From Candidatus Staskawiczbacteria bacterium (GTDB lineage: Bacteria > Patescibacteriota > Minisyncoccia > Minisyncoccales > Staskawiczbacteraceae): a stretch of DNA of 62,207 bases. This document shows, piece by piece, positions 56,541 to 56,632 of the stretch. The stretch is from the NCBI GenBank assembly GCA_016196125.1, contig JACPYG010000005.1, positions 1 through 62,207 on the forward strand, written 5' to 3'. Position 1 is the stretch's first letter, and every line of letters begins with the position of its first letter. Under the pieces are notes generated by a model. The model did not search any database. It was not told the DNA's origin and worked only from the letters and a program-made list of their open reading frames with translations. The position numbers and the translations under genes are program-made.

Positions 56541-56632
56541 CATAAAACATGGAACATGAAACATGGAACAAACGACGATGTTTTTATTATGTGTTCTATG
56601 TTATGTGTTCTATGTTATGTGTTATGTGTTTT
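56541..56632 (-). repeat. leader heptad-repeat hairpin L6 (between pilB stop and pilT start)
   Basis: Longest copy: aaaacat ggaacat gaaacat ggaaca - loop - six gtgtt/atgtt heptads. Confidence 0.75.

What the first reader, a model, noticed from the sequence alone, without database searches (positions are those of the whole stretch)
56541..56632. Orientation-locked heptad-repeat hairpins abutting six start codons
Seen: six copies at 4953-5019 (lemA), 8191-8268 (groES), 30366-30443 (trpS), 45086-45154 (rpoB), 51680-51737 (pseudopilin) and 56541-56632 (pilT). On the mRNA strand each reads 5' AACACAT/AACATAA-type heptads, then a loop, then ATGTTCT/ATGTTTC/ATGTTCC-type heptads running into the ATG. 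This holds whether the gene is on the plus strand (trpS) or the minus strand (the other five). The arms form an imperfect ~25-bp hairpin; for the groES copy I paired about 20 of 25 positions. The element also creates the spurious N-termini [18 protein letters not shown] and MFYVLFF in the ORF track. Inference: strict orientation and position argue for a function rather than random MITE insertion. Candidate functions are a translation or stability element that sequesters the start region, or a DNA array of 7-bp protein-binding sites.
Basis: partly seen in the sequence, partly recalled or inferred. Interest (0 to 1): 0.65.

Follow-up and report, generated by a model that had tools for sequence, protein, structure and literature searches.

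The report
Heptad hairpins: empty intervening-sequence cassettes
The six hairpin repeats that fill the gap between a stop codon or promoter and the next gene's ATG are real and orientation-locked, but they look like the gene-less stems of a widespread selfish cassette that elsewhere carries a '23S rRNA intervening-sequence protein' gene, not like a demonstrated regulatory switch.

Summary
The window has exactly six copies of a 60-90 nt element. On the mRNA strand each reads CA-rich heptads (AACACAT/AACATAG), a loop, then ATGTTYY heptads that reach the start codon.

The family occurs in many CPR (Patescibacteria) genomes. Of 47 well-scoring copies, 41 sit directly before a same-strand ORF of at least 60 aa, four more before short or truncated genes, and none clearly in reverse.

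The hairpin is systematically weaker on the mRNA strand. A.C mismatches there become G.U pairs on the opposite strand, so start-codon sequestration is poorly supported.

The key new result concerns cargo. In related loci the same two arms flank a ~115-aa gene of Pfam PF05635 (23S_rRNA_IVP, Avd-like four-helix bundle) that reads in the host direction.

In 65 independent PF05635 loci, 48 have flanks that are inverted complements of each other. Any strong flank periodicity is almost always 7 nt. Cyanobacterial plasmids show the same layout.

The window copies are therefore best read as ORF-less members of an IVS-like heptamer-armed cassette family lodged in operon spacers and 5' UTRs.

What the element does at RNA level was not tested: no usable RNA data exist. 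I rate it a new variant of a known kind.

The parts
56541..56632 (-). Copy 1, before the pilT-like ATPase. 5' arm 56632-56587 (six CA heptads) starts 1 nt after the pilB-like stop codon (56635-56633). Loop 56586-56572. 3' arm 56571-56541. True ATG 56536-56534, 7 nt past the last heptad ATG.
   Evidence: (85.1 bits sense, 56.8 antisense)
51681..51739 (-). Copy 2, between the prepilin peptidase and a pseudopilin. The peptidase stop TAA (51734-51732) lies inside the 5' arm (51739-51709). The loop is only ~3 nt. The 3' arm (51705-51681) holds the pseudopilin start ATG (51699-51697) and its first six codons, MFHVPC.
   Evidence: the L009 pseudopilin has the same leader
45089..45156 (-). Copy 3, at the end of the rpoB 5' UTR. 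5' arm 45156-45124, loop 45123-45111, short 3' arm 45110-45094, spacer GTAAC, ATG 45088-45086. A perfect TTGACA-16-TATAAT promoter match lies at 45366-45339.
   Evidence: the orthologous copy before rpoB is in L047
30363..30444 (+). Copy 4, between RNase J and trpS; the only plus-strand copy. 5' arm 30363-30396 starts 1 nt after the RNase J stop codon (30359-30361). 3' arm ~30410-30444. The last three bases (30442-30444) are the trpS ATG.
   Evidence: the orthologous copy is in L031
8191..8270 (-). Copy 5, which makes up nearly the whole groES 5' UTR. A promoter-like site TTGACA-17-TAGATT lies at 8314-8286. 5' arm 8270-8241, loop 8240-8223, 3' arm 8222-8191. The last three bases (8193-8191) are the groES ATG.
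   Evidence: the orthologous copy is in L055
4952..5020 (-). Copy 6, between a Zn-ribbon protein gene and lemA. 5' arm 5020-4990 begins 6 nt after the upstream stop codon (5029-5027). 3' arm 4981-4952. The lemA ATG is 4946-4944.

Best explanation
WHAT IT IS (shown by comparison). The six elements are ORF-less members of a family of palindromic insertions whose two arms are inverted arrays of tandem heptamers. Fuller members carry, between the same arms, a ~115-aa gene of Pfam PF05635 / TIGR02436. [quoted passage not shown]

Full layout: host stop codon, CA-rich heptads, ATG of the small gene, its stop codon, TG-rich heptads, host ATG. Everything lies on the host's coding strand.

The same design is known from the intervening sequences (IVS) of 23S rRNA genes, which have an inverted-repeat stem, an optional S23p ORF and tandem heptamers before the ORF. 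Here it is lodged in operon spacers and 5' UTRs of protein genes.

HOW IT MOST LIKELY WORKS (inferred):
1. The element is transcribed as part of the host mRNA. The groES and rpoB promoter matches lie upstream of it.
2. It is polar. The 5' arm is nearly free of ATG and supplies TAA/TAG. The 3' arm carries ATGs, and the host start codon is its last ATG, or lies one heptad further on.
3. Because its ends coincide with the stop and start codons, folding brings those two codons together at the base of the helix. The insertion then does little harm to translation of either cistron.
4. In this ORF-less subfamily the mRNA-strand helix is kept weak through A.C mismatches, so the start region stays accessible in a genome that uses no Shine-Dalgarno sequences.
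5. The orientation lock is a consequence of this polarity and of descent from a read-through-expressed cassette. It does not come from a dedicated regulatory role.

Whether the stem is cut by RNase III like an rRNA IVS, and how copies spread, is unknown.
For: Family and position:
- 76 loci from GTDB genomes contain the core. Most are CPR: Staskawicz-, Falkow-, Moran-, Parcubacteria and bins labelled Saccharibacteria.
- Of 62 near-full copies, 48 lie within 21 nt of a same-strand ORF of at least 60 aa. In 33 the upstream same-strand stop codon falls at or inside the 5' arm.
- Of the 47 best copies, 41 precede such an ORF. Two more precede L33 genes, one a 46-aa ORF, and one is cut by the end of the locus.
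- The in-frame ATG is the element's last triplet in 21 of the 47 best copies and lies at +7 in about 10.

Cargo:
- L009, L043 and L068 have arm, PF05635 ORF, arm, then host ATG. Pfam E-values are 2.5e-25 and 2.9e-22; TIGR02436 gives 1.5e-24.
- PF05635 loci were also fetched by protein similarity alone. In 19 of them the window-family model hits exactly at the borders of the ORF.
- L077 carries the cassette before trmD, where L071 has the ORF-less form.
- L080, L088 and L009 carry it before pseudopilins, and L087 before a prepilin peptidase. This is the same operon type as window copy 2.

Generality:
- Of 65 intact PF05635 loci, 48 have mutually complementary flanks (z >= 3).
- Where a flank has strong periodicity, the period is 7 in 32 of 37 upstream flanks and 32 of 38 downstream flanks.
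- The heptamer sequence differs between loci while the two arms co-vary.
- The same holds in annotated cyanobacterial plasmids.

Literature:
- The Coxiella 23S IVS has a stem, an S23p ORF, RNase III excision and 2-3 strain-variable GACAGAT heptamers before the ORF (PMC4990558).
- CPR rRNA insertions encode 23S_rRNA_IVP (PMC11270868).

Gain, loss and change:
- S6 and SSB are occupied in L057 but empty in the window.
- L012 and L028 differ by a 7-nt indel.
- Long heptad arrays occur in L040, L058 and L068.

Transcription and translation context:
- Promoter matches lie upstream of the element.
- Window genes have no Shine-Dalgarno sequences.
Against: - No PF05635 gene lies in the window, and I could not survey the rest of this genome.
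- No target-site duplication is visible, no known transposase is associated, and no mobility mechanism is known for these cassettes. 'Selfish' therefore rests on distribution, not on mechanism.
- The arms at four orthologous sites are far better conserved than synonymous sites. That means selection, which could be host-level function, or continuing homogenisation between copies.
- Downstream genes are rich in translation and transcription functions: r-proteins L2, L3, L4, L14, L24, L28, L33, S6 and S13, plus rpoB, aaRS genes, SecY, GreA and GroES. That would also fit a regulon.
- The weak sense-strand helix argues against RNase III processing in this subfamily.
- It cannot be decided whether ORF-less copies arose by loss of the ORF or whether the ORF entered pre-existing hairpins.
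- The genome sample was selected by an exact 20-nt match in the 5' arm, so conservation of that arm is partly built in.
Confidence: 0.6

Rival explanations
1. A dedicated post-transcriptional control element. It would be a 5' leader or intercistronic module shared by growth-related genes (translation, transcription, chaperone, secretion). An RNA-binding protein or the ribosome would read its heptads, or its imperfect hairpin would tune initiation, for example as a thermometer for groES or by coupling termination to re-initiation.
For: - Arms are conserved at orthologous rpoB, groES, trpS and pilT sites while synonymous sites are saturated and loops diverge.
- Ribosomal-protein-operon and other housekeeping genes are over-represented downstream.
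- The start codon is part of the element in about half the copies.
- The genome has no Shine-Dalgarno sequences.
- A similar proposal was made for TAACTGA heptamers, which end 1 nt before start codons (PMC4679880).
Against: - Which genes carry the element differs between related genomes.
- The same arms flank a cargo gene.
- The mRNA strand is the weakly folding strand.
- CPR genomes are mostly housekeeping genes, so the enrichment is modest and not formally tested.
- No RNA or ribosome data are available.
Confidence: 0.2
2. The heptad arrays are binding sites for the cassette's own oligomeric four-helix-bundle protein, supplied in trans to ORF-less copies. Binding could be to DNA or to RNA, one heptamer per subunit, and would serve copying, processing or protection of the element. 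This overlaps with the best explanation: it adds a trans-acting factor to it.
For: - Heptamer sequence varies from cassette to cassette while remaining repeated and mirrored on both sides of the gene. This is what cognate recognition would produce.
- The 5' arm sequence is conserved beyond what pairing needs.
- S23p of Xanthomonas is a homopentamer (cited in PMC4990558).
- From my own knowledge, the related DGR protein Avd is a pentamer that binds nucleic acid and the reverse transcriptase.
Against: - Nothing here tests binding.
- Arrays hold 2-6 heptads, not a fixed five.
- S23p of the Coxiella IVS is probably not even translated (PMC4990558).
- A 7-bp spacing puts successive DNA sites on different faces of the helix.
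Confidence: 0.15
3. The functional structure lies on the strand opposite the genes. It could be an antisense RNA hairpin, for example a block or terminator for antisense transcription running into gene starts. Or it could be a single-stranded DNA hairpin on the template strand, recognised by a strand-specific recombinase of the IS200/IS605 or RAYT kind.
For: - The antisense strand folds better in 59 of 62 copies (mean -26.2 versus -18.2 kcal/mol; z -5.0 versus -3.9).
- In a fixed register, 85-86% of cells are canonical on the antisense strand against 69-71% on the sense strand.
- Seven pair positions are A.C or C.A on the sense strand, which is G.U on the antisense strand. They alternate only with A-U, G-C and C-G, the usual wobble pattern of a real helix.
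Against: - No promoter or consistent U-tract supports an antisense transcript.
- Orientation follows the adjacent gene, not a fixed chromosomal direction.
- No Y1 transposase was seen.
- PF05635 cassettes in general show no strand bias (34 sense versus 28 antisense). Close ORF-bearing relatives favour the sense strand (17 of 24).
- The same asymmetry is what selection for an unstructured mRNA start region would produce.
Confidence: 0.07
4. An ordinary DNA-transposon MITE, mobilised by a conventional transposase encoded elsewhere. Its position and orientation would result only from purifying selection in a compact genome, where spacers are a few nucleotides long and nearly everything is transcribed in one direction.
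For: - Terminal inverted repeats, small size, many copies and presence/absence between genomes.
- A shared 'master' consensus that includes the loop AAAAAAACGTCCGTCGTAGTTTTG, found in several genomes.
- Assembly breaks at the copies.
- Spacers in these operons are very short (9 nt between S6 and SSB), so any surviving insertion must abut both codons.
Against: - There are no target-site duplications.
- The only gene ever found between the arms is PF05635, not a transposase.
- The element ends exactly at the ATG, or one heptad before it, far more often than random placement in a spacer predicts.
- The arms are tandem heptamers of variable number, unlike typical transposase-binding TIRs.
Confidence: 0.1

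Closest known systems
Intervening sequences (IVS) of bacterial 23S rRNA genes that carry an S23p / 23S_rRNA_IVP ORF (Leptospira, Coxiella burnetii; also ORF-less IVSs, and IVP ORFs in CPR rRNA insertions). Sources: PMC4990558, PMC11270868.
   Same: - An inverted-repeat stem that encloses an optional ~115-120-aa PF05635 gene.
- Tandem heptamers directly before that gene, with copy number varying between strains.
- Insertion in the sense orientation into highly transcribed DNA.
- A sporadic distribution that suggests horizontal spread.
- ORF decay, and existence of ORF-less forms.
   Different: - Here the host is not an rRNA helix but the stop-to-start spacer or 5' UTR of protein genes.
- The element's ends coincide with stop and start codons, and sometimes supply them.
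- Both arms are built of heptamers.
- RNase III excision, which defines an IVS, is untested, and the weak sense-strand helix argues against it.
TAACTGA heptamer direct repeats of marine Beggiatoaceae, some Cyanobacteria and Bacteroidetes (MacGregor 2015, PMC4679880); heptamer repeats near start codons in Nostoc PCC 7120 (bioRxiv 10.1101/2022.06.06.494920).
   Same: - Tandem 7-nt units that carry stop triplets and point toward a start codon.
- The commonest class ends 1 nt upstream of the ATG.
- No ribosome-binding site.
- Found inside ribosomal-protein operons.
- A patchy distribution read as horizontal transfer.
- Function unresolved.
   Different: - Those are direct repeats without a partner arm; only one inverted case was found among 170.
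- The units differ.
- No associated gene was reported.
- TAACTGA and the other named heptamers were absent from my 80 PF05635 loci, so a common origin is only a hypothesis.
GGGAATC heptamer repeats of Xanthomonas and GGGGA(C/T)T of Nostoc (Rehm et al. 2015, PMC4692102). From my own knowledge, also the cyanobacterial STRR heptanucleotide repeats, including those inside RNase P RNA genes.
   Same: - Intergenic tandem heptamers.
- In Xanthomonas, 70-75 sites are convergent pairs able to form stem-loops.
- Mostly conserved in position between related species, with length changes.
- Reported near groES.
   Different: - G-rich, and studied there as G-quadruplexes.
- Not reported to be locked to start codons; orientation relative to genes was mixed in Nostoc.
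- No link to PF05635 genes was made there.
Transcribed palindromic repeats and MITEs: REP/BIME, ERIC/IRU, Correia (NEMIS), BOX/RUP (my own knowledge).
   Same: - Short intergenic inverted repeats, co-transcribed with neighbouring genes.
- Orientation-dependent RNA folding caused by G.U versus A.C asymmetry (described for ERIC).
- Effects on mRNA stability or processing.
   Different: - No sequence relationship.
- Those are not built of tandem heptamers and do not abut start codons as a rule.
- Their partners are RAYT or IS transposases rather than a four-helix-bundle gene.

Membership tests
IVS-like PF05635 (23S_rRNA_IVP / S23p) cassette | A stem formed by terminal inverted repeats that bracket the insertion | tested here: met
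   All six window copies fold as hairpins. 48 of 65 PF05635 loci have complementary flanks.
IVS-like PF05635 (23S_rRNA_IVP / S23p) cassette | A PF05635 ORF in the loop (optional: ORF-less IVSs exist) | tested here: inconclusive
   Absent from all six window copies, and no PF05635 hit in the window. Present between the same arms in L009, L043, L068, L077, L080, L081, L084, L087, L088 and L099.
IVS-like PF05635 (23S_rRNA_IVP / S23p) cassette | Tandem heptamers adjoining the ORF or stem, variable in number | tested here: met
   A 7-nt indel separates L012 from L028. Compare GACAGAT x2-3 in Coxiella (PMC4990558).
IVS-like PF05635 (23S_rRNA_IVP / S23p) cassette | Located inside an rRNA gene | tested here: not met
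   All six lie before protein genes. No rRNA was found in the window or in 18 related loci.
IVS-like PF05635 (23S_rRNA_IVP / S23p) cassette | Excised from the transcript by RNase III without re-ligation | not testable with these tools
   No RNA run holds this genome. The sense-strand helix is interrupted by 3x3 internal loops, which argues against excision.
Start-codon-proximal heptamer repeats (TAACTGA type) | Tandem 7-nt units oriented toward a start codon and ending within a few nt of it, without an RBS | tested here: met
Start-codon-proximal heptamer repeats (TAACTGA type) | Direct repeats only, of the unit TAACTGA | tested here: not met
   Two different units arranged as an inverted pair. 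TAACTGA is absent.
MITE (non-autonomous DNA transposon) | Terminal inverted repeats plus presence/absence between genomes | tested here: met
MITE (non-autonomous DNA transposon) | Target-site duplication, and an autonomous partner that encodes a transposase | tested here: not met
   No duplication flanks any copy. The only cargo found is PF05635, which is not a known transposase.
REP / RAYT system | A short GC-rich imperfect palindrome with a conserved GTAG-type tetranucleotide, and a RAYT (Y1 transposase) gene in the genome | tested here: inconclusive
   The element is AT-rich, 60-90 nt long and lacks that motif. The rest of the genome could not be searched for a RAYT gene.
Intrinsic terminator | A GC-rich stem followed by a U-tract | tested here: not met
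   No terminator call at the two copies scanned (rpoB, groES). In all six copies the stem runs into, or stops a few nt short of, an ATG and coding sequence.
Known RNA families (Rfam 15) | A match at the gathering score | tested here: not met
   Only two tRNAs were found in the window.

The most novel reading that the evidence does not exclude
The enigmatic intergenic heptamer repeats of bacteria may be one phenomenon: the termini, or the empty remnants, of a single superfamily of PF05635 (IVP / S23p / Avd-like) cassettes. This would cover the CPR heptad hairpins, rRNA IVS stems, cyanobacterial STRR-type repeats, and perhaps the Xanthomonas GGGAATC and Beggiatoa TAACTGA repeats.

In this reading the oligomeric four-helix-bundle protein recognises one heptamer per subunit. 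The element spreads through an RNA intermediate, in the way Avd works with a reverse transcriptase in DGRs. That would explain the strict sense orientation and the preference for very highly transcribed targets: rRNA, RNase P RNA, r-protein operons, rpoB and groESL.

The evidence shows the protein-heptamer association in CPR metagenome loci and in cyanobacterial plasmids. It excludes none of the rest.
Probability: 0.2. Interest if true: 0.85.

Novelty: new variant of a known kind. Interest (0 to 1): 0.6.

Why it matters
1. Gene calling. The element explains a recurrent annotation artefact in CPR genomes: false N-terminal extensions such as MFHVSCS. In some genes (GroES, TrpRS, a prepilin leader) the true start codon is contributed by a repeat element.

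2. Element biology. IVS-type insertions have been known only as oddities of rRNA genes. Here they also colonise the stop-to-start spacers and 5' UTRs of essential protein genes in reduced genomes. That raises the question of how translation tolerates, or exploits, an 80-nt insert at the initiation site in organisms without Shine-Dalgarno sequences.

3. A testable handle on two old puzzles. PF05635 genes are bracketed by mirrored heptamer arrays in 48 of 65 independent loci and in named cyanobacteria. This bears on what the 'S23 ribosomal / four helix bundle' proteins do, and on what bacterial heptamer repeats are.

Tried and rejected
- RNA evidence. No RNA run holds the window. Metatranscriptome contigs from the study of a related genome barely cover the r-protein operon in L045. 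DNA contigs of four groundwater runs break at the copies but show no clear heptad-number polymorphism and no empty sites.
- Rfam gives nothing at the elements. IMG/VR viral contigs give no hit to the core.
- Promoter inside the element, producing leaderless mRNA. The sequence upstream of the ATG (…GTTTCATGTTCC) has no -10-like hexamer, and real promoter matches lie upstream. Rejected.
- Integron attC, DnaA boxes, CIRCE and 16S complementarity were considered from memory. The motifs do not match; not pursued.
- Replication-locked orientation. GC skew here simply tracks the coding strand, so it cannot separate the two. The element follows its gene in the 5-6 cases where that gene is on the local minority strand.
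- 'Stops in all three frames' in the 5' arm. This was my own early idea, and it is wrong for the consensus, which covers two frames (and direct reading). What does hold: the sense 5' arm lacks ATG in 52 of 62 copies, against 4 of 62 for the antisense reading.
- General strand bias of folding in PF05635 cassettes: none.
- Named heptamers (TAACTGA, GGGAATC, STRR1-3, GACAGAT) do not occur in the 80 PF05635 loci.
- The sense-strand RNAalifold consensus is weak (-4 kcal/mol, one compensatory pair), because the sample was selected for an invariant 5' arm.
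Full report
OBSERVATION

Reading the six sites on the coding strand of the downstream gene shows one layout throughout. A run of CA-rich heptads with the core CATARCATARAACACATAAC comes first. A variable A-rich and CGTCGT-rich loop follows. 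Then come two to four ATGTTYY heptads that end at, or a few bases before, the start codon.

AACACATAACA with up to one mismatch occurs 14 times in the window against 1.1 expected. A profile HMM and a covariance model built from 37 copies recover exactly these six sites and no others in 62 kb.

The downstream genes are LemA, GroES, TrpRS, RpoB, a pilin-like protein and a PilT-like ATPase. The upstream genes, where present, are a Zn-ribbon protein, RNase J, the prepilin peptidase and a PilB-like ATPase.

In four copies the element fills the whole interval from the upstream stop codon to the downstream ATG. The peptidase stop codon even lies inside the 5' arm. In the groES and rpoB copies it is the 3' end of a 5' UTR, with sigma-70-type promoter matches upstream at 8314-8286 and 45366-45339.

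THE FAMILY ELSEWHERE

An exact-match scan of one genome per GTDB species returned 76 loci, most from CPR/Patescibacteria. In the 623 kb held, nhmmer found 86 matches, of which 62 are near full length.

- 48 of the 62 have a same-strand ORF of at least 60 aa that starts within 21 nt of the 3' end.
- 33 have a same-strand upstream ORF whose stop codon lies at the boundary or inside the 5' arm, typically a TAA of a heptad.
- Of the 47 best copies, 41 precede such an ORF. Two precede L33 genes, one a 46-aa ORF, and one is cut by the end of the locus. Only two are exceptions: L036, and L058 next to a tRNA.
- The in-frame ATG is the element's last triplet in 21 of the 47 best copies and lies one heptad further on in about ten.

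Recognisable downstream products include rpoB, groES, trpS and pilT, at the same four sites as in the window (loci L047, L055, L031, L041). Others are r-proteins L2, L3, L4, L14, L24, L28, L33, S6 and S13, plus SSB, SecY, Adk, GreA, Pth, TopA and TrmD.

The orientation follows the neighbouring gene even where that gene is on the local minority strand. GC skew here merely tracks the coding strand.

WHICH STRAND FOLDS

Any inverted repeat reads 'CA-rich then TG-rich' on both strands. The lock therefore concerns the asymmetry between AACACAT-type and ATGTTCC-type heptads.

That asymmetry has a clear physical meaning. In a single continuous register of 31 positions, seven are A.C or C.A on the mRNA strand, which is U.G or G.U on the other strand. 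One position per heptad is a pyrimidine-pyrimidine mismatch.

- Canonical cells are 69-71% on the sense strand and 85-86% on the antisense strand.
- The antisense strand is more stable in 59 of 62 copies: -26.2 versus -18.2 kcal/mol, with composition-corrected z of -5.0 versus -3.9. It is more stable in all six window copies.
- In variants, the mismatch positions alternate with A-U, G-C and C-G, and one clean double change (A-T to G-C) was seen in L031. Pairing therefore matters at some level.

PF05635 cassettes in general show no such bias (34 versus 28). I therefore read the bias as a property of this ORF-less subfamily: pairing potential is kept, but the mRNA near the start codon is kept weakly structured. 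The start codon itself is at most in a 3-4 bp closing helix.

WHAT THE ARMS BELONG TO

Several 'solo' 5' arms turned out not to be solo.

- L009, L043 and L068: the arm is followed by a ~115-aa ORF. Its stop codon is followed directly by a TG-heptad arm and then by the next host ATG.
- The ORF is Pfam PF05635 (23S_rRNA_IVP; E 2.5e-25 and 2.9e-22), bAvd-like, and TIGR02436 'four helix bundle protein'.
- The L009 cassette sits before a pseudopilin whose leader, MFHVPCS..., matches that of window copy 2.

I then fetched 80 metagenome loci using the protein alone. The close relatives are flanked by the window family's arms: the HMM gives half-hits exactly at the ORF borders in 19 loci. They occupy the same kinds of site:
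- before pseudopilins (L080, L088);
- before a prepilin peptidase (L087);
- before trmD (L077, where L071 has the ORF-less form).

More distant relatives, at 35-46% identity and from DNA of 33-61% GC, have entirely different heptamers but the same design. Examples are GGTCAGA, GCAGTAG, CCAACAA and GCTATAA.

- Of 65 loci with an intact ORF and both flanks, 48 have flanks that are inverted complements (z >= 3 against shuffles).
- 47 have lag-7 tandem structure in at least one flank.
- A strong period is 7 in 32 of 37 upstream flanks and 32 of 38 downstream flanks, and otherwise 8 or 9.

The same holds for annotated 'four helix bundle / S23 ribosomal protein' genes on plasmids of Nostoc punctiforme, Trichormus variabilis, Calothrix, Anabaena sp. 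90 and Geminocystis.

COMPARISON WITH WHAT IS KNOWN

This architecture is that of the 23S rRNA intervening sequence. In Coxiella burnetii the IVS is a 428-nt selfish stem-loop in helix 45. It encodes S23p, is excised by RNase III, and has two or three strain-variable GACAGAT heptamers just before the ORF (PMC4990558). CPR rRNA insertions also encode 23S_rRNA_IVP (PMC11270868).

Start-proximal heptamer repeats without a known partner have been described in three settings:
- Beggiatoaceae: TAACTGA, ending 1 nt before start codons, also inside r-protein operons (PMC4679880);
- Nostoc (bioRxiv 10.1101/2022.06.06.494920);
- Xanthomonas, often as convergent pairs (PMC4692102).

In the library I could search, I found no paper that links heptamer arrays in general to PF05635 genes, or that describes IVS-like elements in operon spacers. 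That is absence in that library, not proof of novelty. The named heptamers were not present in my PF05635 loci.

MECHANISM

Shown:
- family membership by shared arms;
- polarity;
- position from stop codon to start codon;
- co-linearity with host genes;
- promoter matches upstream;
- differences in occupancy between genomes;
- heptad-number change between close relatives;
- weak sense-strand folding.

Inferred:
- The element is carried in the mRNA.
- Folding juxtaposes the stop and start codons, so the insert is nearly neutral for both cistrons.
- The ATG-poor, TAA/TAG-bearing 5' arm and the ATG-bearing 3' arm are what make only one orientation viable.
- The ORF-less copies derive from cassettes whose gene is expressed by read-through, or share a copying mechanism with them.

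Open:
- RNase III processing.
- The role of the four-helix-bundle protein.
- The means of spread.

One observation does not fit a purely neutral relic. At the four sites shared with other Staskawiczbacteria, proteins are 74-83% identical and four-fold sites only 34-43% identical. The loops have diverged, yet the arms are about 90-97% identical. Either the arms are under selection, by the host or by the element's own machinery, or copies are continually homogenised. An identical loop, AAAAAAACGTCCGTCGTAGTTTTG, occurs at non-orthologous sites of one genome and across genomes. That shows recent copying also happens.

VERDICT

The functional inference is only partly supported. The most economical account is an IVS-like, heptamer-armed, PF05635-associated cassette family whose ORF-less stems sit before six genes in this window. 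I rate it a new variant of a known kind, of moderate to high interest, mainly because of the general protein-heptamer link it exposes.

Noticed in passing
window 55032-55470 (-); also 7811-7897 (-) and 53796-53815 (-): A second element family with the same design.
- A 126-aa PD-(D/E)XK gene (PF13366 / TIGR04256 'GxxExxY'; 55073-55453) sits between pilT and pilC. It is bracketed by inverted arms, GCGATACAAATCTACAAATG... and ...AAATTTGTAAATTTGTATCG.
- An ORF-less hairpin of the same arms fills the groES stop to groEL start spacer (7897-7811).
- A lone 5' arm lies at 53796-53815.

The groESL operon therefore carries both families.
   Followed up: partly
window 22348-23994 (-), within a GC-rich island at ~21.7-24.5 kb (GC 0.46 versus 0.35): A 548-aa ORF with no Pfam hit matches NCBIfam NF052498, 'TIGR-Tas system RNA-guided endonuclease' (125 bits, cutoff 100). 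It also weakly matches IS110-type transposases. No clear tandem guide array was found in the flanking non-coding DNA.
   Followed up: partly
window 8320-8395 (-): A 15-bp inverted repeat, CCCCGTTAGAAGTTT ... AAACTTCTAACGGGG, spaced ~47 nt apart, ends against the -35 box of the groES promoter. It is not CIRCE and may be an operator.
   Followed up: no
window 45160-45340 (-): The rpoB leader is ~250 nt long, counted from a perfect TTGACA-16-TATAAT match. It contains a GC-rich hairpin (GGGGTCAGGATTC...GAATCCTGACCCC, ~45190-45222) ahead of the heptad element.
   Followed up: no
L040 1947-2206; L058 7897-7995; L068 1955-2190 and 5809-6000; L073 1068-1145: In Moranbacteria-type bins (and in L073, from a bin labelled Bacteroidetes) the same heptads expand into arrays of 80-400 nt. 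One example is 14 perfect AACACAT units at a contig end. They behave as microsatellites and break assemblies.
   Followed up: partly
L003 (after the amidase gene), L032 (after the 253-aa gene), L062: Other heptamer hairpin families occur in CPR spacers, for example (AGTAACT)n and (TACGAAT)n paired with AATTCGTA-type arms. The design is not limited to one sequence family.
   Followed up: no
window 8841-15809 (-): A 2322-aa ORF with internal 18-nt and 6-nt tandem repeats (14744-15140). Not examined.
   Followed up: no
L009 2928-3266 (-): The PF05635 gene in this cassette is disrupted. Its C-terminal part continues in another frame after an apparent insertion. This fits the ORF decay reported for the Coxiella IVS.
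   Followed up: partly
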